DNA from: Sphingobacteriaceae bacterium
Lineage (GTDB): Bacteria > Bacillota > Sulfobacillia > Thermaerobacterales > RSA17
Length of the DNA stretch: 64,000 bases
Reading direction: 5' to 3'
Assembly (NCBI GenBank): GCA_035303785.1
Contig: DATGRI010000022.1
Coordinates: 6,913-70,912 of the forward strand
Under the pieces are notes generated by a model. That model worked only from the letters and a program-made list of their open reading frames with translations. It ran no database searches and had not been told where the DNA came from. Below are positions 34,801 through 56,088 of the stretch, in pieces. Position 1 is the first letter of the stretch. Each line of letters opens with the position of its first letter. Position numbers and translations under genes: made by a program.

Positions 34801-35820
34801 TCAGCCTTTCAGGGACGCCAGCCCCCGCAGGGTGGCGCCCTGGAGCCCGGTGCGCTCCTTCACCTCGGCCATGGTGGCTTCGGCGATCTCCCGGGCCTTC
34901 CGGGCGCCCGTCAGGATGATCTCCTTAACGTAATCGGGCTTGGCCAGCAGTTCCTGCCGCCGCTCCCGGAATGGGGCGAAGGCCTGGCTGACGGCCTCCG
35001 CCAGGGTTTCCTTCAACTCCACGTAGCGCAGGCTGCCGTCGTTGTAGGCAACCAGGAGCCGTTCATGGGCCGCCGGGTCGAAAGTCTGCAGCAGGCCGAA
35101 CAAGTTGGCCACCCCCGGGGCCATGCCCTCGGCCCTGGGCCCGGTGTCGGTGACGGCCTTCATGATCTTCTCCCGGACGACCTGGGGCTCGTCGGACAGG
35201 GCGATGTAGCTGCGGGGCCCCAGGGACTTGCTCATCTTCTTGTCGGGCTCCGTCAGGCTCTTGACCCGGGCGGTGTCCTCGGTGACCAGGGCCTGGGGCT
35301 CGGGGAAGGTCTCGCCGAACATATGGTTGAAGCGGCGCACGATCTCCCGGGTCAACTCAACGTGGGGAACCTGGTCCTCGCCCACGGGCACCACTTCGGC
35401 CTTGTACATGATGATGTCCGCCGCCTGGAGCACCGGGTAGGCCAGCAGCCCCAAGTTCACGTAGTCGGGCTGCATGGCCGCCTTCTCCTTGTATGTGGGC
35501 ACCCGCTCCAGCCAGGCCACCGGGGTGATGGAGCCCAAGATCCACGCCAGTTCCGTGTGTTCCGGCATGAGGGACTGGACCAGCAGCAGGGAGCGCTCCG
35601 GGTCCACGCCGGCCGCCAGGAAATCGATGGCCAGGTTGATGGTCCGCTGGGACAGTTCCTCGGGCTCGAAGGGCGAGGCGATGGCGTGGTAGTCCACGAT
35701 GCTGTAGATGCATTCGTAGTCGTCCTGCAGCGTGATCCAGTTGCGGACGGCGCCCAAGTAGTTGCCCAGGTGCAGTTCCCCTGTGGGCCTCATGCCGCTG
35801 AACACACGTTTCCGTGTCAA
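34801..35820 (-). CDS. trpS: Tryptophan--tRNA ligase
   Basis: SGMRPTGELHLGNYLG (HIGH), YPVLQAADI, VPVGEDQ, KMSKS. Confidence 0.97.
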   Translation of the reverse strand: MTRKRVFSGMRPTGELHLGNYLGAVRNWITLQDDYECIYSIVDYHAIASPFEPEELSQRTINLAIDFLAAGVDPERSLLLVQSLMPEHTELAWILGSITPVAWLERVPTYKEKAAMQPDYVNLGLLAYPVLQAADIIMYKAEVVPVGEDQVPHVELTREIVRRFNHMFGETFPEPQALVTEDTARVKSLTEPDKKMSKSLGPRSYIALSDEPQVVREKIMKAVTDTGPRAEGMAPGVANLFGLLQTFDPAAHERLLVAYNDGSLRYVELKETLAEAVSQAFAPFRERRQELLAKPDYVKEIILTGARKAREIAEATMAEVKERTGLQGATLRGLASLKG

Positions 35821-35860
35821 TTGGCTTCCCCTTCCTCATACCGGGGCCCTGCCGGGCTGG

Positions 35861-36490
35861 TCAGCCCAGGCCCGTGACAGCCAGCAGGACTCCCGTCAAA
35901 TTCCGCAGGAGGGCGTCCAGCCAGCCCACCACCGGCAGCAGGAGGCGGCTGGTGATGCCCGTCCACAATAATATCACCAGAATGAGCCAGCCGTAGGTCT
36001 CCAAGGAATCGATGAATTCGGCCGTTTCCGCCGGCACCAGGCCCGCCAGGATGCGGGAGCCGTCCAGGGGCGGCACCGGCAGCAGGTTGAACACGGCCAG
36101 GTACAGGTTAATCAGGTAGGCGTACTGGAGGGCCTGGGGCAGATAGCCCCCAATCATCCACTGCCAGGGCAGCAGGCCCATGGCCAGGCGGATGATAAAG
36201 GCCAGGACGATGTTGGTGGCGGGTCCGGCGGCGGCCACCAGGAGCATGCCCCGGCGGGCATCCTTGAAGTAGTAAGGGTTCACCGGCACCGGCTTGGCCC
36301 AGCCGAAGCGGAAGATGAACAGCATCAACAGGCCGATGGGGTCGATGTGGGGTATGGGGTTCAAAGTCAGGCGCCCCATGTTCCGGGGCGTGGGGTCCCC
36401 CAGGGCGTCGGCCGTGCGGGCATGGGCGTATTCGTGGAGCACCAGAGCCAGCAGCAGGCCCGGCAGCGTTACCAGGGGATTGAACAGCAT
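35861..36490 (-). CDS. Site-2 protease family (M50) membrane metalloprotease
   Basis: HEYAH, GRLTLNP, GWAKPVP, FNLLPVPPLDG. Confidence 0.93.
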   Translation of the reverse strand: MLFNPLVTLPGLLLALVLHEYAHARTADALGDPTPRNMGRLTLNPIPHIDPIGLLMLFIFRFGWAKPVPVNPYYFKDARRGMLLVAAAGPATNIVLAFIIRLAMGLLPWQWMIGGYLPQALQYAYLINLYLAVFNLLPVPPLDGSRILAGLVPAETAEFIDSLETYGWLILVILLWTGITSRLLLPVVGWLDALLRNLTGVLLAVTGLG

Positions 36491-36526
36491 GATTTCCGGC
36501 TTCCTCTCCGGGCCGCTCCTCCCGGG

Positions 36527-37879
36527 TCAGGGGGCCGGCCGGCGCTGGAGCACGGCGGCTTCGGCCGTCAGGGGCTGGTGCCCCCGGAGCAGATCCCGGT
36601 ATTCTTCCCGGCGGATGATGACCCGGGCCCGCTCCTTGTTCACCAGGACCACGGCCGGCCGGGGCAGCAGGTTGTAGTGGCTGGCCATGCTGTATGTATA
36701 CGCCCCGGTGGAAAGGAGGACCACCAGGTCGCCGGGCTGGGGCGACGGCAGGCGGCAGTGCTTCACCAGCACGTCGCCGCTTTCGCACAATTTGCCCACG
36801 ATGCGGCAGTCTTCCAAGGGCCGGGGGGCCTCGCCCCCCCCCGTGGGCACCAGCAGGGCGGTGTACTGGGCGTCGTACAAGGCCGGGCGGGGGTTGTCGC
36901 TCATGCCCCCGTCCACGGCCACGAAGGCCGGCAGTCCCGGCACCCGCTTGATGCTGCCCACGGTGTAGACGGTGGTGCCCGCCTCGCCGATCAGGGAGCG
37001 GCCCGGCTCCAGGATCAAATGGGGCAAGGGCAGGTTCCGGGCTTCGGCTTCCCGCCGCACCCGCTCCACCAGGGCGGCCACCATCTCCTCCACCGCCGGC
37101 GGTTCGTCGCCTTCCAGGTAGCGGATGCCCAGGCCGCCGCCCAAATCCAATTCGGTCATGGGCCGGCCCGTGGTCCGGGTGGTTTCCCCGGCCAGGGCCA
37201 TGAGGCGGGACACCGTTTCCAAGAAGGGGTCCACCGAGAACAACTGGGACCCGATGTGGGCATGGAACCCGCGGAAATCCAGGCCGGGCGAGGCCGCCGC
37301 CTGCCGGGCGGCTTCCAGGGCTTGTCCCGAGGCCAAATCGAAGCCGAACTTGGTGTCCTGGGTGCCCGTCTGGATGTAGGAATGGGTTTCGGCCTCCACC
37401 CCGGGCGCCACCCGCAGCAGCACCGGCACCGGGCCTTGGGCCCGGCCGGCCACTTCCCGCAGCAGTTCCAGTTCGTGAAAATTGTCCACCACGATGCGGC
37501 CCACCTGGGCCAGGACGGCCTGCTCCAGTTCGGCCCTGCTCTTGTTGTTGCCGTGGAAAATAATGTGGGCGGCGGGAAAGCCGGCCGCCTGGGCCATATA
37601 CAGTTCCCCGCCGGAAACCACGTCCAGGCCGATGTCTTCTTCCGCCAGCAGTTCACAGAGGGCCATGGCCAGGAAGGCTTTGGCGGCGTAAACCACCTGC
37701 CATGAGGGATAGCCGGTGGCCGCCAGGGCGGCCCGGTAGCGCCGGGCCTGGCCGCGGATTTCCTCTTCGTTGAGGACCAGCAGCGGGGTGCCGAAGGACC
37801 GGGCCAGGGTGACCACGTGGTGGCCGGCTATGGTCAGATTGCCGGCTGCGTCTAAATCCAGCCCGCCCCAGAGCGCCAA
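36527..37879 (-). CDS. lysA: Diaminopimelate decarboxylase
   Basis: YAAKAF (PLP Lys), DVVSGGEL, HGNNKS, HIGSQ, LDLGGG, EPGRS, CESGD. Confidence 0.96.
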   Translation of the reverse strand: MALWGGLDLDAAGNLTIAGHHVVTLARSFGTPLLVLNEEEIRGQARRYRAALAATGYPSWQVVYAAKAFLAMALCELLAEEDIGLDVVSGGELYMAQAAGFPAAHIIFHGNNKSRAELEQAVLAQVGRIVVDNFHELELLREVAGRAQGPVPVLLRVAPGVEAETHSYIQTGTQDTKFGFDLASGQALEAARQAAASPGLDFRGFHAHIGSQLFSVDPFLETVSRLMALAGETTRTTGRPMTELDLGGGLGIRYLEGDEPPAVEEMVAALVERVRREAEARNLPLPHLILEPGRSLIGEAGTTVYTVGSIKRVPGLPAFVAVDGGMSDNPRPALYDAQYTALLVPTGGGEAPRPLEDCRIVGKLCESGDVLVKHCRLPSPQPGDLVVLLSTGAYTYSMASHYNLLPRPAVVLVNKERARVIIRREEYRDLLRGHQPLTAEAAVLQRRPAP

Positions 37880-50275: not shown

Positions 50276-50379
50276 CCACCCTTTCCCAATTAAGTTGATG
50301 GGTTTACTATGCTATAGTTCGGACCCCCATGTCAATGACTAATTTTCCGTCGCAAAACTGCATATGCATGCCGGGGGGT

Positions 50380-51192
50380 ATGGCCGTGGGGCGGTTTTTC
50401 GTCGTAAAGCGCCGGCGGGCATGGGGGCTGGTCCTGGTGGCCGTGATGGTGCCCTTGCTGGTGGCGGGCTACTGGGCCTGGCCCGTCGTCGAAGCCCGCA
50501 TGGAGCGGGTGATCCGGGCCATTGCTGCGGGGACGGCTTCCCGCCGGCTGCCCATCTACAGCGTCTGGACCGAGGAAAAAATAGCGGCCATCTCCTTCGA
50601 CGCCGCCTGGGGCGCCGACAAGACCCGCACCATCCTGGACATCCTGGACGAGTACGGCATCAAGACCACCTTCTTTCTGGTCACCTTCTGGGTGGAGAAA
50701 TACCCCGACGAAGCCCGGGAGATGGTGGCCCGGGGCCACGAGATCGGCCTCCACTCCTCCACCCATCCCGACTTCACCGCCCTGACCAATGCCGCCATCC
50801 GGGAGGAGTTGACGGAAAACCACCGGGTCATCAAGGAGATTACCGGGGTGGAGCCCCGGCTCTTCCGTCCCCCCTTCGGGGCCTACAATGACCGGGTCCT
50901 GTCGGTGGTGGAGGATGAACTGGGGTACCTCACCATCCAGTGGAGCGTGGATTCCCTGGATTGGCGGGACGTGACCCCCGATGACATCACCCGGCGCATC
51001 CTGTCCCGCATCCATCCCGGCGCCATCGTCCTGTTTCACAACAATGCCGAGAGTACCCCCGCCGCCCTCCCCCGCATCCTGTCGGCCCTCCAGGCCGGGG
51101 GCTGGCGCATCGTGCCCATATCCCAATTGCTGCACCCGGGCCCCTACACCATCGACCACGAAGGGCGCCAAATCCCTAAAACGAAGGAATGA
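50380..51192 (+). CDS. Polysaccharide deacetylase (PdaB-like)
   Basis: SFDAAWG, TFFLV, HEIGLHS.TH, FRPPFG, WSVDSLDW, GAIVLFHN; N-terminal TM; sigmaE-like CATATGCAT at 50361. Confidence 0.9.
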   Translation: MAVGRFFVVKRRRAWGLVLVAVMVPLLVAGYWAWPVVEARMERVIRAIAAGTASRRLPIYSVWTEEKIAAISFDAAWGADKTRTILDILDEYGIKTTFFLVTFWVEKYPDEAREMVARGHEIGLHSSTHPDFTALTNAAIREELTENHRVIKEITGVEPRLFRPPFGAYNDRVLSVVEDELGYLTIQWSVDSLDWRDVTPDDITRRILSRIHPGAIVLFHNNAESTPAALPRILSALQAGGWRIVPISQLLHPGPYTIDHEGRQIPKTKE

Positions 51193-51215
51193 ACATCATA
51201 TATTGATATGGTTGT

Positions 51216-51245
51216 TTGACCTGCATGGGGGAAAAATGTTAGGAT
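51216..51245 (+). promoter_or_regulatory. sigmaA promoter upstream of the asparagine-synthetase homolog
   Basis: TTGACC-N18-TAGGAT with TG extension. Confidence 0.6.
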
Positions 51246-51260
51246 AATTCAACAAATTCC

Positions 51261-51366
51261 AACCTGCCGTTGATTCTTTCAATTAGGGAAGCAGACACGT
51301 CCCCGCATCGGGGCGCGACGGCTTCCTTTTGTTTTTGGCAGGAACTCTTTACCTCCGAAGGGAGTT
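51261..51366 (+). promoter_or_regulatory. Structured 5' leader with terminator-like hairpin and RBS-sequestering hairpin (candidate attenuator)
   Basis: GGAAGC(51287)/GCTTCC(51321) stem enclosing CCCCG/CGGGG, followed by TTTTGTTTTT; CCTGCC/GGCAGG outer stem; AACTC/GAGTT hairpin over the GGGAG RBS. Confidence 0.5.
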
Positions 51367-51375
51367 GGTTGCATC

Positions 51376-52911
51376 ATGGCCGGCATTGCCGGCTGTATCG
51401 GCCACGGGCCGGCAGAAGTCCACGAGATGCTTTCGGCCTTGGCCAACCGGGGCTCAGGCAGCGCTACAGTAACCGTCCATCAAGGAATCACCCTGGGGTG
51501 CATCGGCACCCCCGACACAGCCATGTCCGCGTGGGATGAATACCGGGGTGTCATCGACGGGGAGTTCTATCCCCCCGAGGAGCCCCAGGCAACCGTGGAA
51601 ACGCCCGGTGCGGCCCCGACGCCGGGTTCCGCCGACGTCGCCCCCGGGGAAGGAGATGTACCCGGCGGCTACGATTGGCTCCACAGGTACGCCCTGCAGG
51701 GACCGGCCGTGCTGGAGAAGGTGCAAGGGGTCTTCGCCCTGGCCGCGGTAGGCCCCGACGGCTTGTGGCTGGCCCGGGATCCCTTGGGCGTCAAGCCCCT
51801 CTACTACGGCTTCGACGATCAGGGAAGGCTTTGGTTCGCTTCCCAGATCAAGCCCCTCCTGGGCCGGGTCGCCCGGCCCCGGGAATTCCCGCCCGGGCAT
51901 TATTACGGCAGCAAGGCAGGCTTCCGGCAGTATTACGATCTGCCGGCGCCCACGGGCAACCTGCAGGATCTGGACCAGGCCAAGGGCACCTTGCGCCGCA
52001 GGCTGCAGCGGGCCATCCGGCGCCGGCTCCAAGGCCCCGAAGAGGTAGGGGTGATGCTCAGCGGCGGCCTGGACTCCAGCCTGTGCGCCGCCATGGCTAT
52101 GGAAGCCCGGGAAGGCGAGCCACTGCCCAGCTTCGCCATGGGCATGACGGGCAGCGACGACCTGGTGCAGGCCCAGGCCGTGGCCCGGGATCTGGGCACC
52201 CGCCACTTCCAGCGGGAGGTCCAGCCCCAGGAGATCATCGCCGTCCTGCCCACCATCATCGAAGACCTGGAATCCTTCGACGCCGCCGTGGTGCGGGGTG
52301 CCGTGGCCAACCATTTCGCGGCCCAGCTGGCCCGGGAGCACGTGGATGCCGTCATCACCGGCGAGGGGGCCGACGAGCTGTTCGCCGGCTACCATTACTT
52401 GAAGCACCCCCGCATCAGGGAGCGGCTGGAAAAGGAACTGCAGCGCATCGTCCGGGGCGGCAGCCGGACCACCCTCCAGCGGCTGGACCGGATGAGCAGC
52501 CGCCACCAGTTGATGGCCCGCCTCCCCTTTTTGGACTTGGATGTGGTAAATTTCGCATGGCGGGTGCCTTCCCGGTGGAAGCTCAACCCCCGGGAAGAAA
52601 TCGAGAAATGGATTCTAAGGCATGTGGCCGAAGCATATTTGTCGCCCGACATCGTGTGGCGCACCAAGGCCAAGTTCGCCCTGGGCACCGGGGTGGGCCC
52701 CTTCCTGGCCGCCTACGCCGCCGACGTCATTTCACCCGCCGAATACCAGCGGGAGCGGGAGCCCCTGCCGGGACTGATCCTGCGCGACCGGGAAGAACTG
52801 CTCTATTTCCGCATCTTCCGGGACATTTTCGGCAGCCGCGTCAAGGACATCGTGCCCGTCATGGGCCGCAGCCCCAGCCTCAATGACGAGGTGGCGGGCA
52901 CGCCGGTCTGA
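51376..52911 (+). CDS. Asparagine synthetase B homolog with non-functional glutaminase (Ntn) domain
   Basis: Synthetase motifs intact (LSGGLDSS, TGEGADELFAGY, LDR, PFLD, KWILR); N-terminus MAGIAG lacks Cys1. Confidence 0.88.
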   Translation: MAGIAGCIGHGPAEVHEMLSALANRGSGSATVTVHQGITLGCIGTPDTAMSAWDEYRGVIDGEFYPPEEPQATVETPGAAPTPGSADVAPGEGDVPGGYDWLHRYALQGPAVLEKVQGVFALAAVGPDGLWLARDPLGVKPLYYGFDDQGRLWFASQIKPLLGRVARPREFPPGHYYGSKAGFRQYYDLPAPTGNLQDLDQAKGTLRRRLQRAIRRRLQGPEEVGVMLSGGLDSSLCAAMAMEAREGEPLPSFAMGMTGSDDLVQAQAVARDLGTRHFQREVQPQEIIAVLPTIIEDLESFDAAVVRGAVANHFAAQLAREHVDAVITGEGADELFAGYHYLKHPRIRERLEKELQRIVRGGSRTTLQRLDRMSSRHQLMARLPFLDLDVVNFAWRVPSRWKLNPREEIEKWILRHVAEAYLSPDIVWRTKAKFALGTGVGPFLAAYAADVISPAEYQREREPLPGLILRDREELLYFRIFRDIFGSRVKDIVPVMGRSPSLNDEVAGTPV

Positions 52912-52946
52912 ACAGGGCCGCTCCCCCGTTTGAGGAGAAGTGATGG

Positions 52947-53684
52947 ATGCGCTGTGACGTAGTCGCCCGCTGGCAGGACGCCGACGAGTCCCTGCTGGCG
53001 GGCCGCCGGGTTGTGGTCATCGATGTGCTGCGGGCCACCTCCACCATCGCCACCGCCTTGGCCGCCGGTGCCGCTGCCGTGTGGCCCGTGGCCGAAGTGG
53101 AAGAGGCCTTCGCCCTGGCCGACCGGCTGCGCCGGGAAGGCCACCAGGTGCTCCTGGCCGGGGAGCGGAAAAACATCAAGGTCGAGGGATTCGACCTGGG
53201 CAACTCGCCCCTGGCCCTCACCCCCCAGTTGCTCAAGGAAGCCCAATTGGTGCTCACCACCACCAACGGGACGCCGGGGCTGGCCAAGGCCAAGGCCTTC
53301 GGGGCCGCCGCCGTTTACGCCGGCGCCCTCATCAACGGGCCCGCGGTGACCGCCGCCCTGGCGGCCCAGCCCGACGGGCCCGACATCACCTTGGTTTGCG
53401 CCGGCACCAAAGGGTATCTGGCTCTGGAAGACTTCTTCTGCGCGGGACTCATAGTGGATGGGCTCACGGCCCGGTGGCCCGATATGGCCGTCAACGACAC
53501 GGCCCGGGCGGCCCGCCTGGCCTTCGCCGCCGCCATGGGCTGCTGGCCCGAGCCCCTGGTCAACTGCAGCCACGCCCAAAGCCTGGCCCGGGCCGGCTTC
53601 CGCGACGACATCGGCTACTGCGCCCGCATCGGCACCAACCAGGTTGTTCCCGTCATGATGGGCGACCGGCTGGTTCCCGCTTAA
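52947..53684 (+). CDS. comB: 2-phosphosulfolactate phosphatase family protein
   Basis: VIDVLRATST, LAGER, GFDLGNSP, TTTNGT, ED..CAG. Confidence 0.9.
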   Translation: MRCDVVARWQDADESLLAGRRVVVIDVLRATSTIATALAAGAAAVWPVAEVEEAFALADRLRREGHQVLLAGERKNIKVEGFDLGNSPLALTPQLLKEAQLVLTTTNGTPGLAKAKAFGAAAVYAGALINGPAVTAALAAQPDGPDITLVCAGTKGYLALEDFFCAGLIVDGLTARWPDMAVNDTARAARLAFAAAMGCWPEPLVNCSHAQSLARAGFRDDIGYCARIGTNQVVPVMMGDRLVPA

Positions 53685-54865: not shown

Positions 54866-55951
54866 TTACGTCATGGGCACCTGCCGGACAATGCGGCCTT
54901 CCAGCCGGTCGAAGATGTCGTCCAGGCTGCGGCCCGTCACCGTCAGGCCGTGGTTCCGCAGGCCGATGACCGCCTGGCTGGGGTCGGGCGCCTGGCGCAC
55001 CAATTCCGCCACCGCCTCCGCCAGTTGGCGGGTGCCGCACGGGTAGTTGACCTCGGTGGAGGGGATGCCCTCCATCCAGGCGTGGACGTGGACGATGGCC
55101 CCCACTTCCGGGTGCTCCTTGTAGATCATCCAGTGCTCGATGGCGTCCACCGAAACCCGCCGGGGCTTCACGTGGGGCGGCACGCTGAGGATCATAGCCT
55201 TGTTCTCAGGATCGTAGCCCGTCACCAGCAGGATGTCCCGCCCGATCTCCTCCAGCTTGGCCTTGTTGACGCCGCTGGCGCTCATCCAGAAGGTGTCGGT
55301 GTCCCTACGGGCGCTCAAGTTGCCGTAGCTCAGGCCGCCCAGGCCGTAAAGCCGCTGGACGTGGCGGAAATCCTCGGGCGGCAGGATTTCCTCGATGGGG
55401 AAGGGCGCCGGCAGCAAGTCCAAGGCGTCCAGCCGCTGTCCGGCCAGGGTAAGCTGCCGGGTGATCTCATCCCCTTCCCACAATTCCTCCGGCAGGTCGG
55501 GGACGAACACGTTATTGACCACCAGTTCCGAGGTGGCCAGGGGCGCCAGCCTCTTGATCAAAGTCCGGAAGAAGGCGTCCTTGTCCTCGGGCCGGTATTC
55601 CACCGGGTAGGCCCCCTGCTCCAGGGTGATGAAGTGGAACCGGGGATCGCCGCTGCTGCCCGAAACGTACAGGAGCAGATTGGACAAGGACCGCACCAGC
55701 AGCGGGTAGCCTGCCCGCAGCACATCCTCGGGAACCTGGGGCACGGCCACCACCCCCACTACAAAGGTGGCCTGCCCCCGCCGGCGATAAGGCCGGGGAT
55801 CCTCAGGGTCAAAAAAATTGAAAACCAGACGAATGTCGGGTACGGGTTCGGGCACGTGCTCGTAGCCCTGGGCAGTCAGGTGCTCCCGCAGCCCGTCCGC
55901 CAGCCACGCCAGGGCAGGCTGCCGGTCCACACCGACAAAAGTGAATTGCAT
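54866..55951 (-). CDS. Class II aldolase/adducin family protein with an additional N-terminal domain
   Basis: GNLSAR, SASGVNK, EHWMIY, HVH, NHG Zn ligands in the C-terminal half. Confidence 0.85.
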   Translation of the reverse strand: MQFTFVGVDRQPALAWLADGLREHLTAQGYEHVPEPVPDIRLVFNFFDPEDPRPYRRRGQATFVVGVVAVPQVPEDVLRAGYPLLVRSLSNLLLYVSGSSGDPRFHFITLEQGAYPVEYRPEDKDAFFRTLIKRLAPLATSELVVNNVFVPDLPEELWEGDEITRQLTLAGQRLDALDLLPAPFPIEEILPPEDFRHVQRLYGLGGLSYGNLSARRDTDTFWMSASGVNKAKLEEIGRDILLVTGYDPENKAMILSVPPHVKPRRVSVDAIEHWMIYKEHPEVGAIVHVHAWMEGIPSTEVNYPCGTRQLAEAVAELVRQAPDPSQAVIGLRNHGLTVTGRSLDDIFDRLEGRIVRQVPMT

Positions 55952-56088
55952 AGCCGTATTCCCCTCTTTCAAATCCGTGGTCGGCTCCGGCGTACCATCA
56001 CGTTACATATTAACACCAGTTCCACGCCTTATTGCCATGGAACCACGGCCTACTGACTTCTATGCCCGGGAGCCGCAGGGCAACAACG

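What the first reader, a model, noticed from the sequence alone, without database searches (positions are those of the whole stretch)
51376..53684. Glutaminase-dead AsnB homolog co-transcribed with phosphosulfolactate phosphatase, next to pdaB
Verified in DNA: the N-terminus is ATG GCC GGC ATT (MAGI), so the Ntn nucleophile Cys1 is Ala. HRGPD has become NRGSG, and the oxyanion NGEIYN has become DGEFY with a Pro/Gly-rich insertion. The ATP/adenylation site (SGGLDSS, GEGADELFAGY) is intact. Known: Cys1-less AsnB folds are repurposed as amide-bond ligases (beta-lactam synthetase, lasso cyclases) or can use free ammonia. B. subtilis uses ComB-like YitC for sporulation sulfolactate. Inference: an ammonia- or amine-dependent amide ligase acting with ComB on an unknown acid (e.g. 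sulfolactate or a cortex/peptidoglycan carboxyl), under attenuation control. This is the best candidate here for an undescribed small pathway.
Basis: partly seen in the sequence, partly recalled or inferred. Interest (0 to 1): 0.7.

Follow-up and report, generated by a model that had tools for sequence, protein, structure and literature searches.

The report
Glutaminase-dead asparagine synthetase in glutamine-free bacterium
This gene is an asparagine-synthetase-type enzyme that has lost its glutamine-splitting site, not because it joined a new pathway with its neighbour comB, but because this compost bacterium lacks glutamine synthetase and has disabled or deleted the glutamine-using part of all but one of its amidotransferases, so they probably run on free ammonia.

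Summary
Window 51376-52911 encodes a 511-aa AsnB-type protein that starts MAGIAG (Cys1->Ala). HRGPD has become NRGSG, the Arg49 loop is gone and NGEIYN has become DGEFY. There is a disordered 27-residue Pro/Gly insert. The PP-loop and the GEGADE/Arg/Lys adenylation site are intact. The gene is under purifying selection (dN/dS 0.13), including the dead N-domain.

The proposed AsnB-ComB pathway is not supported. comB is adjacent only in this genus. In the sister genus 4.4 kb of unrelated genes lie between them, and only 2 of 95 homologous loci have comB nearby. ComB also has its normal partners elsewhere in the genome: ComA and an APS/PAPS reductase.

The better explanation is genome-wide. This 1.64-Mb genome has no glutamine synthetase, although all 12 relatives tested have one. 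Its second AsnB paralogue is also Cys1->Ala. PurF is Cys->Ser, PyrG is Cys->Ser, GuaA and GlmS lack glutaminase domains, and PurQ, CarA and TrpG were not found. Only GatA keeps its catalytic triad.

The protein is most likely an ammonia-dependent Asp->Asn synthetase. What free Asn is for remains open, because the genome has no AsnRS.

The parts
50329..51192 (+). PdaB-like polysaccharide deacetylase gene (upstream neighbour; context only).
   Evidence: PF01522 at 2.7e-37. TIGR02764 pdaB scores 206 bits, below its 237-bit cut-off. It lies near the AsnB orthologue in the congener and in the sister genus only.
51216..51245 (+). Sigma-70-like promoter: TTGACC, 18-nt spacer, TAGGAT, with a TG extension.
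   Evidence: Consensus scan. Both hexamers are nearly unchanged in the congener L102.
51285..51340 (+). Terminator-like hairpin (AGGGAAGC...GCTTCC) followed by a T-run, inside the 5' leader. It could be an attenuator or the pdaB terminator.
   Evidence: (MFE -44 kcal/mol, z -2.35). It is conserved in L102. No Rfam family matches it.
51376..52911 (+). AsnBL: a 511-aa short AsnB-type synthetase with a dead glutaminase site.
51379..51381 (+). GCC = Ala at the position of the Ntn nucleophile Cys1. Other strains of the same species carry Thr here.
51586..51666 (+). Pro/Gly-rich insert (residues 71-97), predicted to be disordered.
   Evidence: pLDDT below 50. It is absent from relatives and is the most variable part of the protein versus the congener.
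52060..52077 (+). PP-loop SGGLDS (ATP pyrophosphatase motif).
   Evidence: Invariant in alignment A3. Aligns to E. coli AsnB S234-S239.
52360..52392 (+). GEGADELFAGY. [quoted passage not shown]
   Evidence: The roles of the residues are taken from PMC6748925.
52513..52515 (+). Met380, at the position of the interface Glu (E. coli E398 / human E414) that sits beside the glutaminase pocket.
   Evidence: PMC6748925.
52932..52937 (+). GAGGAG ribosome-binding site of comB.
52947..53684 (+). comB, a 2-phosphosulfolactate phosphatase family gene. It is probably co-transcribed with AsnBL but is functionally tied to ComA elsewhere in the genome.
   Evidence: PF04029 at 225 bits. All NCBIfam equivalogs score below their cut-offs. 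ComA and an APS/PAPS reductase lie on contig C12.
53681..54766 (-). ypdA-type putative bacillithiol-disulfide reductase gene. It converges on comB and overlaps its end by 4 nt (context only).
   Evidence: TIGR04018 at 433 bits, above its 340-bit cut-off.

Best explanation
AsnBL is this lineage's orthologue of the short (about 500 aa) AsnB-type asparagine synthetase found in Thermaerobacter- and Symbiobacterium-related bacteria.

Shown:
- Its Ntn glutaminase site has been dismantled: Cys1->Ala, the Arg49 loop deleted, Asn74->Asp, and the interface Glu lost.
- The whole protein, including the remnant N-domain, is still kept by purifying selection.
- All adenylation and amide-forming residues are present.
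- The same genome lacks glutamine synthetase.
- The genome has also lost, truncated or mutated the nucleophile of the glutaminase part of its second AsnB paralogue, PurF, PyrG, GuaA, GlmS and PurL (PurQ/PurS are missing from the pur operon and no PurQ motif was found in the genome), and no CarA or TrpG was found. The sister genus keeps glutamine synthetase and the catalytic Cys in its short AsnB, CarA, TrpG/PabA, GuaA and PyrG.

Inferred:
- The enzyme adenylates the beta-carboxylate of aspartate with ATP and captures free ammonia to give asparagine, as the E. coli AsnB C1A variant does. The old N-domain would serve only as a structural cap or as an entry route for ammonia.
- The adjacency to comB arose from genus-specific gene loss between two genes that already lay in the same neighbourhood. 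ComB works with ComA and an APS/PAPS reductase, encoded elsewhere, to make sulfolactate.
For: Anatomy.

Closest sequence and fold matches are true asparagine synthetases:
- 1CT9 at E 3e-51, against beta-lactam synthetase at 1e-12.
- NF006949 'asparagine synthase B' at 344 bits.
- AF2 model with pLDDT 90.2. TM 0.82-0.85 to 1CT9 and 0.80 to human ASNS, against 0.70-0.75 to beta-lactam synthetase.

The equivalents of E348/D351/E352/Y357/R387/K449 are retained (residue roles from PMC6748925).

Purifying selection against the congener: omega is 0.13 for the whole gene, 0.13 for residues 1-100 and 0.12 for residues 171-511. Neighbouring genes give 0.07-0.15.

Orthology and repeated loss of Cys1:
- The gene falls in a starred clade with the Cys1-bearing Thermaerobacter and sister-genus proteins.
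- At least 7 changes of Cys1 state are needed among the 105 cluster representatives whose N-terminus could be read.
- An Ala/Thr polymorphism at residue 2 exists within the species.

Genome-wide pattern:
- No PF00120 hit and no tblastn hit with relatives' glutamine synthetase. All 12 of 12 relatives have the enzyme.
- The second AsnB starts MAGIAG. Only it and its congener have Ala among the 120 nearest cluster representatives; one other has Ser and 111 have Cys.
- PurF reads SGLFAVFGH.
- PyrG reads GISFGLQ, the GuaA glutaminase domain is truncated, and GlmS begins at its isomerase domain.
- purC is fused to purL and the operon has no purS or purQ.
- The genome has 2 class-I GATase domains, against 7, 9 and 6 in three relatives, and those relatives keep the GxCxG nucleophile elbow.

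The comB linkage is not conserved. ComA is present elsewhere.

Habitat: the stretch is found in compost, soil and anaerobic-digester metagenomes from ten or more studies.
Against: - No enzyme assay exists. The substrate is inferred only from conserved residues.
- The genome has no AsnRS but has GatB, so free Asn cannot be charged directly to tRNA. The reason for making it is unexplained.
- The sister genus also lacks AsnRS yet keeps a glutamine-dependent copy.
- 34 of 149 positions that are at least 90% conserved in Cys1-bearing homologues are changed. These include L362G/H363S/N366T, which from their spacing probably lie on the same helix face as Arg369 (the R387 equivalent).
- The synthetase domain sits on a long stem of 0.91 substitutions per site. 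This could reflect a change of substrate rather than a remodelled ammonia tunnel.
- Scores are below the curated AsnB cut-offs.
- The genome is a MAG (97.9% complete), so absences of single genes carry some risk.
- Cys1 loss in this family also occurs in genomes that keep glutamine synthetase (G008, G029). The genome-wide pattern is therefore not the only route to Cys1 loss.
Confidence: 0.6

Rival explanations
1. AsnBL is an ammonia-dependent amidotransferase for a cell-wall carboxylate. The candidate reaction is amidation of meso-diaminopimelate in peptidoglycan precursors, as done by B. subtilis or Listeria AsnB, L. plantarum AsnB1 and C. glutamicum LtsA. It would not make free asparagine.
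For: - The genome lacks AsnRS, so free Asn is not needed for tRNA charging. The sister genus also lacks AsnRS and keeps the orthologue.
- AsnB-family enzymes are known to amidate mDAP and can be promiscuous (PMC8554201, PMC5485061, PMC7920481).
- The gene lies next to a PdaB-like cell-wall deacetylase gene within this family of bacteria.
Against: - Known mDAP amidotransferases are long (about 630 aa) and form clades separate from E. coli AsnB. AsnBL is 511 aa, and its best matches are E. coli AsnB and human ASNS.
- The acidic pocket that binds the alpha-amino group of Asp is intact.
- In Thermaerobacter-type relatives the orthologue sits beside what looks, from its N-terminal sequences, like a branched-chain amino-acid (Liv-type) ABC transporter operon, not beside wall genes.
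Confidence: 0.17
2. AsnBL is a repurposed amide-bond ligase that acts with ComB on sulfolactate or a related acid, forming a small undescribed pathway.
For: - The gap to comB is 35 nt with no terminator, and the arrangement is shared with the congener.
- Cys1-less AsnB folds such as beta-lactam synthetase are ligases.
- The helix carrying the R387 equivalent has changed.
Against: - The adjacency is found only in this genus. In the sister genus 4.4 kb of genes absent from this genome lie between the two.
- ComB is present in only 2 of 95 loci surveyed.
- ComA and an APS/PAPS reductase lie at another locus and explain ComB.
- The Cys1-bearing orthologues are ordinary-looking AsnB proteins.
- Similarity to ligase-type members is much weaker than to AsnB.
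Confidence: 0.04
3. AsnBL has shifted to a longer substrate and amidates glutamate to glutamine, replacing the missing glutamine synthetase.
For: - Glutamine synthetase is absent, yet GatA still has an intact triad that needs an amide donor.
- Two AsnB paralogues are retained.
- L362G/H363S/N366T put smaller side chains next to the substrate-binding Arg.
- The synthetase domain sits on a long stem in the tree.
Against: - No AsnB-family enzyme is known to make Gln (my own knowledge).
- The same helix also lines the ammonia tunnel, and the N366 position varies in other Cys-less lineages that live in genomes with glutamine synthetase.
- The pocket size could not be measured here.
Confidence: 0.05
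4. AsnBL is a decaying relic with no catalytic role.
For: - The N-domain is degenerate.
- The genome lacks AsnRS.
- Scores fall below the curated cut-offs.
Against: - Omega is 0.13 over the whole gene and every catalytic motif is intact.
- The AF2 model is confident.
- RNA-derived contigs from four compost or soil metatranscriptome runs match the 5' part of the gene at 99-100%.
Confidence: 0.05

Closest known systems
E. coli asparagine synthetase B (AsnB, PDB 1CT9, which is itself the C1A variant) and human ASNS (6GQ3)
   Same: - Two-domain fold (TM 0.80-0.85).
- PP-loop SGGLDS.
- Equivalents of E348/D351/E352/Y357/R387/K449.
- From my own knowledge, the engineered C1A enzyme keeps ammonia-dependent synthesis. 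That is the activity proposed here.
   Different: - This is a natural Cys1->Ala, not an engineered one.
- The Arg49 loop is deleted and Asn74 is Asp.
- The interface Glu (E398/E414) is Met.
- D384 is Thr.
- There is a 27-residue disordered insert.
- The protein is about 40 residues shorter.
- Scores fall below the NF006949 and TIGR01536 cut-offs.
Short (about 500 aa) AsnB orthologues of Thermaerobacter, the sister genus and Symbiobacterium (P0007-P0009, P0044, P0047)
   Same: - 43-48% identical over the full length and in the same starred clade.
- Same synthetase motifs.
- Several of these lineages have also lost Cys1 (to Gly, Ala or Ser) independently.
   Different: - Thermaerobacter and the sister genus keep Cys1, HRGPD, the RLSIID loop and NGEIYN.
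- None of them is next to comB.
- Their genomes keep glutamine synthetase.
AsnB-fold amide ligases: beta-lactam synthetase (1JGT), carbapenam synthetase (1Q15) and lasso-peptide cyclases
   Same: - They lack Cys1.
- They keep the adenylating domain and a non-catalytic N-domain.
   Different: - Much weaker similarity (E 1e-12 and 2e-11; TM 0.63-0.75).
- NF033535 scores 81 bits against a 525-bit cut-off.
- There is no biosynthetic-cluster context.
mDAP-amidating AsnB/LtsA enzymes (B. subtilis AsnB, Listeria AsnB, C. glutamicum LtsA)
   Same: - AsnB family.
- From my own knowledge, the actinobacterial members (C. glutamicum LtsA, M. tuberculosis AsnB) occur in organisms that lack AsnRS and use the tRNA-dependent route to Asn-tRNA.
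   Different: - They are glutamine-dependent, about 630 aa long and form separate clades (PMC8554201).
- No reference sequences were available here for a direct comparison.
B. subtilis YitB-YitC-YitD (PAPS-reductase-like protein, ComB, ComA), the spore sulfolactate genes
   Same: This genome also encodes ComB, ComA and an APS/PAPS reductase.
   Different: Here comB is separated from comA and cysH and sits behind the AsnB-type gene.

Membership tests
Glutamine-hydrolysing asparagine synthetase AsnB (EC 6.3.5.4) | N-terminal nucleophile Cys1 exposed after removal of Met | tested here: not met
   The N-terminus is MAGIAG, with GCC = Ala at 51379-51381. A Thr variant exists in other strains.
Glutamine-hydrolysing asparagine synthetase AsnB (EC 6.3.5.4) | Glutamine-binding and oxyanion network (Arg49, Asn74-Gly75-Glu76, Asp98; HRGPD) | tested here: not met
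   The Arg49 loop is deleted, Asn74 is Asp and HRGPD is NRGSG. 14 N-domain positions that are at least 90% conserved in Cys1-bearing homologues are changed.
Glutamine-hydrolysing asparagine synthetase AsnB (EC 6.3.5.4) | PP-loop and beta-aspartyl-AMP site (SGGxDS; E348, D351, E352, R387, K449) | tested here: met
   S229-S234, E330, D333, E334, R369 and K431.
Glutamine-hydrolysing asparagine synthetase AsnB (EC 6.3.5.4) | Score above the curated family cut-off | tested here: not met
   NF006949 scores 343.8 against a cut-off of 499. TIGR01536 scores 221.6 against 267.1. Pfam Asn_synthase is met at 204 bits.
Glutamine-hydrolysing asparagine synthetase AsnB (EC 6.3.5.4) | Converts Asp to Asn | not testable with these tools
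   This needs an enzyme assay or a complementation test.
AsnB-fold amide ligases (beta-lactam or carbapenam synthetase; lasso cyclase) | Closer in sequence and fold to ligase members than to AsnB; curated model passed; cluster context | tested here: not met
   E 1e-12 against 3e-51. TM 0.70-0.75 against 0.82-0.85. NF033535 scores 81.5 against a cut-off of 525. The neighbouring genes are pdaB, comB and ypdA.
mDAP amidotransferase (AsnB Bsu / LtsA type) | Membership of the mDAP-amidating clades; about 630 aa architecture | tested here: inconclusive
   The length of 511 aa does not fit. The best matches are the E. coli-type AsnB. No reference sequences were available for a tree (one search gives only the published clades).
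2-phosphosulfolactate phosphatase ComB (the neighbouring gene) | PF04029 domain; curated equivalog; ComA partner in the genome | tested here: met
   PF04029 scores 225 bits. ComA scores 319.8, above its 280-bit cut-off, on contig C12. All NCBIfam ComB equivalogs score below their cut-offs, so this is a family-level assignment only.
Conserved asnB-comB operon (the pathway claim) | Adjacency conserved across lineages, especially among Cys1-less homologues | tested here: not met
   Adjacent only in the congener L102. In the sister genus the genes are 4.4 kb apart. ComB is absent from the 93 other loci, including Cys-less ones (P0010, G008, G029, G018).

The most novel reading that the evidence does not exclude
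In a cell with no glutamine synthetase and no AsnRS, asparagine made from free ammonia by the glutaminase-dead AsnB enzymes replaces glutamine as the cell's only self-made amide carrier. Its main use would be to feed GatA, the one glutaminase-type subunit that keeps its catalytic triad. GatA is nevertheless changed at 25 of 136 near-invariant positions, several of them in motifs I take to be active-site loops. GatCAB could then make both Asn-tRNA and Gln-tRNA. AsnB plus GatA would form an ATP-driven ammonia-delivery cycle analogous to glutamine synthetase plus a glutaminase.
Probability: 0.15. Interest if true: 0.85.

Novelty: new variant of a known kind. Interest (0 to 1): 0.6.

Why it matters
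Glutamine made by glutamine synthetase is described as the primary route of ammonium assimilation and the primary amide donor in all free-living organisms (PMC2330236). This free-living, spore-forming bacterium is widespread in compost. It appears to have dropped that system. Glutamine synthetase is absent, and every amidotransferase found except GatA has lost its glutaminase chemistry by a different lesion.

The AsnB-type gene in this window adds two things to that picture:
- It extends the pattern to amino-acid amide synthesis. Both AsnB paralogues are affected, and PyrG brings in pyrimidine synthesis.
- It poses a sharp and testable question: what is free asparagine for in a cell that cannot charge it to tRNA?

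It also shows that natural Cys1-less AsnB proteins have arisen at least seven times in this family and are still annotated as 'glutamine-hydrolysing'. For annotation in general, it is a warning against reading a pathway from a tight gene pair that exists in only one genus.

Tried and rejected
It returned distant AsnB genes from many phyla instead of close relatives. I used those loci only for the comB survey.
- The Rfam scan of 49.5-56.5 kb at E<=1 found nothing relevant, so the leader is not a T-box or any other known riboswitch.
- Metatranscriptome contigs cover only 51180-51752 in short pieces. They do not reach the asnBL-comB junction, so co-transcription and attenuation could not be tested. 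One read-length contig spans the pdaB end and the leader, but it could be DNA carry-over.
- PROSITE-style patterns for glutamine synthetase and my first N-terminal patterns for GlmS and PurF found nothing. I did not treat that as evidence. HMM searches replaced them.
- My first tblastn with 'longest ORFs' from relatives' glutamine synthetase loci picked wrong-frame high-GC ORFs. I repeated it with the correct frames.
- I considered that the real start might lie upstream and supply a Cys. I rejected this because no start codon precedes 51376 in frame after the stop, and homologues align from residue 1.
- I considered relaxed, neutral decay of the N-domain. I rejected this because omega is 0.13 for residues 1-100, and residues 1-62 differ from the congener at only two positions.
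- I considered that Cys1 loss tracks AsnRS loss. I rejected this because the sister genus lacks AsnRS but keeps Cys1, while Symbiobacterium-type genomes have AsnRS and Ser1.
Full report
**The observation**

Window 51376-52911 (+) is a 511-aa ORF. Its first in-frame start codon is ATG GCC GGC ATT, giving MAGI, and an AAGGGAG ribosome-binding site lies upstream. Pfam finds Asn_synthase (6.6e-60) but only the last third of the class-II glutaminase domain. NCBIfam places it nearest 'asparagine synthase B' (NF006949, 344 bits), but below that cut-off and every other one.

I aligned it with 19 and then 62 homologues:
- HRGPD has become NRGSG.
- The Arg49-Leu50...GGxQP segment is deleted.
- NGEIYN has become DGEFY.
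- Residues 71-97 are a Pro/Gly-rich insert.
- The PP-loop SGGLDS and GEGADELFAGY are intact.
- Arg369 and Lys431, the equivalents of E. coli R387 and K449, are intact.

The roles of the E348/D351/E352 pocket and of the Lys are taken from PMC6748925. That paper describes an 'absolutely conserved' interface Glu next to the glutaminase pocket (human E414, which is E. coli E398). Here it is Met.

**Whether the gene is alive**

I compared the gene with a congener that is 89% identical and lies on a 22.7-kb contig with the same gene order. dN/dS is 0.13 overall, 0.13 for residues 1-100 and 0.12 for the synthetase domain. Neighbouring genes give 0.07-0.15. Residues 1-62 differ from the congener at two positions.

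An AlphaFold2 model is confident (pLDDT 90.2, pTM 0.89), and only the insert and the C-terminal tail are disordered. The model superposes best on E. coli AsnB (TM 0.82-0.85) and human ASNS (0.80), ahead of beta-lactam synthetase (0.70-0.75). Residue 2 is Ala in the window and Thr in other strains of the same species, which argues against any role as a nucleophile. Short RNA-derived contigs from four compost or soil metatranscriptome runs match the leader and the 5' part of the gene.

**The comB linkage**

comB (PF04029) starts 35 nt downstream with its own ribosome-binding site, and no terminator lies between the genes. Co-transcription is therefore plausible.

The pair exists only in this genus:
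- In the sister genus (G001) the order is pdaB, a threonine-dehydratase-like gene, asnB, then 4.4 kb, then comB. By sequence inspection only, those 4.4 kb hold what look like an EamA-type transporter, an acetyltransferase-like gene and an enolase-superfamily gene.
- The transporter-like and acetyltransferase-like genes have no counterpart anywhere in this genome, and the enolase-superfamily gene has only a weak (27% identity) match on another contig. The adjacency is best read as the result of deletion in a reduced genome (1.64 Mb against 2.0 Mb).
- In the Thermaerobacter-type genomes the orthologue sits divergently from what looks, from N-terminal sequences only, like a branched-chain amino-acid (Liv-type) ABC transporter operon.
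- Other Cys-less homologues (P0010, G008, G029, G018) have no comB nearby.
- Across 95 loci and 1.28 Mb, ComB turns up only in the congener and the sister genus.

ComB also has its expected partners on contig C12. These are ComA (319.8 bits, above the 280-bit cut-off) and an APS/PAPS reductase, beside a SleB-like spore cortex hydrolase gene. This matches the B. subtilis yitBCD set, which I recall from my own knowledge. The pathway reading is therefore not supported.

**Why the glutaminase is dead**

There are two layers.

The first is a tendency of the protein family. On a tree built from the synthetase domain only, the 105 cluster representatives whose N-terminus could be read need at least 7 changes of Cys1 state. 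Their first residues are Ala in 8, Ser in 5, Gly in 4 and Cys in 88. Some of these losses lie in genomes that keep glutamine synthetase (G008, G029).

The second is specific to this genome:
- It has no match to the glutamine synthetase catalytic domain.
- It gives no tblastn hit with relatives' glutamine synthetase.
- All 12 relatives tested, including the sister genus, have the enzyme.

Other amidotransferases in the genome are affected too:
- The second AsnB paralogue (614 aa, contig C38) also starts MAGIAG. Among its 120 nearest cluster representatives only it and its congener have Ala, one other has Ser and 111 have Cys. Its dN/dS is 0.20.
- PurF reads SGLFAVFGH where CGxFG is expected.
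- The PyrG nucleophile elbow reads GISFGLQ.
- The GuaA glutaminase domain is cut down to about 100 residues and has no nucleophile.
- The GlmS homologue begins at the isomerase domain.
- purC is fused to purL, and purS and purQ are absent from the operon.
- The genome has 2 class-I glutaminase domains: the PyrG one and a stand-alone C26 peptidase. Relatives have 7, 9 and 6.
- The sister genus keeps the catalytic Cys in CarA, TrpG/PabA, GuaA and PyrG.

I reached the PurF, GuaA, GlmS and PurL results before opening the scan's earlier notes. Those notes report the same four genes, plus a HisF fusion without HisH. New here are the absence of glutamine synthetase and AsnRS, both AsnB paralogues, PyrG, and the glutaminase-domain counts against relatives.

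The organism is found in compost, soil and digester metagenomes from ten or more studies. From my own knowledge, such habitats can be rich in ammonia.

**Most likely mechanism**

What is shown is an intact adenylating and amide-forming site in a two-domain AsnB fold with no glutaminase chemistry, kept by selection.

I infer that Asp + ATP gives beta-aspartyl-AMP, which is attacked by free NH3 to give Asn. From my own knowledge, the engineered E. coli C1A enzyme, the very protein in PDB 1CT9, behaves this way. The retained N-domain would act as a structural cap or as an ammonia entry route.

Several changes may reflect remodelling at the domain interface and ammonia tunnel rather than a new substrate:
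- The interface Glu is lost.
- The D384-equivalent position varies in several Cys-less lineages.

This is not settled. L362G/H363S/N366T, from their spacing, probably lie on the same helix face as the substrate-binding Arg, and the genus sits on a stem of 0.91 substitutions per site. The path from the clade's base to this genus is less than twice as long as the paths to its sisters.

**The open problem**

The genome has no AsnRS; the best hits are AspRS and LysRS at about 80 bits. It does have GatB, and so, as far as tested, does its pattern extend to the sister genus, which also lacks AsnRS. Free Asn therefore cannot enter translation directly.

Possible answers are that the real substrate is a wall carboxylate, as for the mDAP-amidating AsnB/LtsA enzymes, or that Asn has another use.

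GatA is the only glutaminase-type subunit that keeps its catalytic residues (AVKDN, GGSSGGS, DTGGSVRQP). It is changed at 25 of 136 positions that are at least 95% conserved in 118 homologues. The congener shares 24 of these 25 changes, and dN/dS is 0.22-0.26. GatCAB enzymes can use Asn as donor, and some use it as efficiently as Gln (PMC2330236). This leaves open the reading that Asn has become the cell's amide carrier for tRNA-dependent transamidation. I give that 15%.

**The leader**

A sigma-70-like promoter (51216-51245) is followed by a hairpin and a T-run (51285-51340) before the ribosome-binding site. The region is about 89% identical in the congener, where synonymous sites have dS of about 0.5. 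It folds modestly better than shuffled sequence (z -2.35). No Rfam family matches it. It may be an attenuator or simply the pdaB terminator. I could not decide between these, and another note of this scan covers it.

**Verdict**

The glutaminase-dead reading is supported, and the AsnB-ComB pathway is not. The gene is best understood as one more ammonia-dependent enzyme in a lineage that has given up glutamine as nitrogen carrier. It is a natural variant of a known enzyme type. On its own it is of moderate interest. It is more interesting as part of the genome-wide pattern and for the question of what free Asn is for in this cell.

Noticed in passing
genome contig C38:5293-7137 (+) = L001:787-2631: A second AsnB-family gene (614 aa) passes the TIGR01536 cut-off but also starts MAGIAG, with Asn74->Asp and the RRLxVVD/GGxQP motifs lost. 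Among its 120 nearest cluster representatives only it and its congener have Ala1; one other has Ser and 111 have Cys. dN/dS against the congener is 0.20.
   Followed up: yes
whole genome G000 (1.64 Mb, 97.9% complete): No glutamine synthetase was found by HMM or by tblastn, although all 12 relatives tested have one. No AsnRS was found, but GatB is present. A motif scan found only one Glu/Gln-tRNA synthetase-like gene.
   Followed up: yes
genome contigs C6:1-1314 and the end of C64 (pyrG): The glutaminase nucleophile elbow of CTP synthase reads GISFGLQ (Cys->Ser), while the His-Glu context is kept. C6 (2.2 kb) and the end of C64 overlap with a few amino-acid differences, which suggests two strains in the assembly.
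   Followed up: partly
genome contig C58, gatA (514 aa, minus strand): GatA keeps its Lys/cis-Ser/Ser triad but differs at 25 of 136 positions that are at least 95% conserved in 118 homologues. Examples are FAMGSS->MGMGAT, SSLDQ->GSMDT and SSNL->SSTM. 24 of the 25 changes are shared with the congener, and dN/dS is 0.22-0.26. This could be a change of amide donor or a loosening of the glutaminase function.
   Followed up: partly
genome contig C12:27953-33377 = L105: One locus holds a SleB-like spore cortex hydrolase, an MFS transporter, ComA (phosphosulfolactate synthase, above its cut-off), a D-2-hydroxyacid dehydrogenase and an APS/PAPS reductase. It is probably the rest of a sulfolactate pathway whose phosphatase (comB) lies in the window.
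   Followed up: partly
genome contig C58:22958-37031: The pur operon runs purE-purB-(purC-like~purL fusion, 949 aa)-purF(Ser1)-purM-...-purH-purD and has no purS or purQ. A GuaA with a truncated glutaminase domain lies at 35802-37031. A GlmS lacking its glutaminase domain lies at about 55.3-56.5 kb. A stand-alone C26 peptidase with an intact GICRGLQ elbow lies at about 52.3-53.0 kb.
   Followed up: partly
window 51180-51375: The 5' leader of the AsnB-type gene has a promoter and a long hairpin followed by a T-run. It is conserved in the congener and matches no Rfam family. One RNA-derived contig covers 51180-51330.
   Followed up: partly
window 54866-55972 (-): A 368-aa protein matches the class II aldolase/adducin domain only in residues about 208-360. 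Its N-terminal 200 residues match no Pfam family. It lies next to the YpdA-type reductase gene and is 93.5% identical in the congener (dN/dS 0.07).
   Followed up: no
window 51379-51381: There is a within-species Ala/Thr polymorphism at the former nucleophile position of AsnBL. The cluster representative P0001, seen on 5 contigs, has Thr.
   Followed up: yes
L092 (G029, Symbiobacterium-type), L094 (G018) and clusters P0111/P0112/P0120: Other lineages of the short AsnB family have Ser1 or Ala1 and N-domains reduced to varying degrees. One clade of 466-471-aa proteins sits on a stem of 1.15 substitutions per site. All are annotated as glutamine-hydrolysing asparagine synthases.
   Followed up: partly
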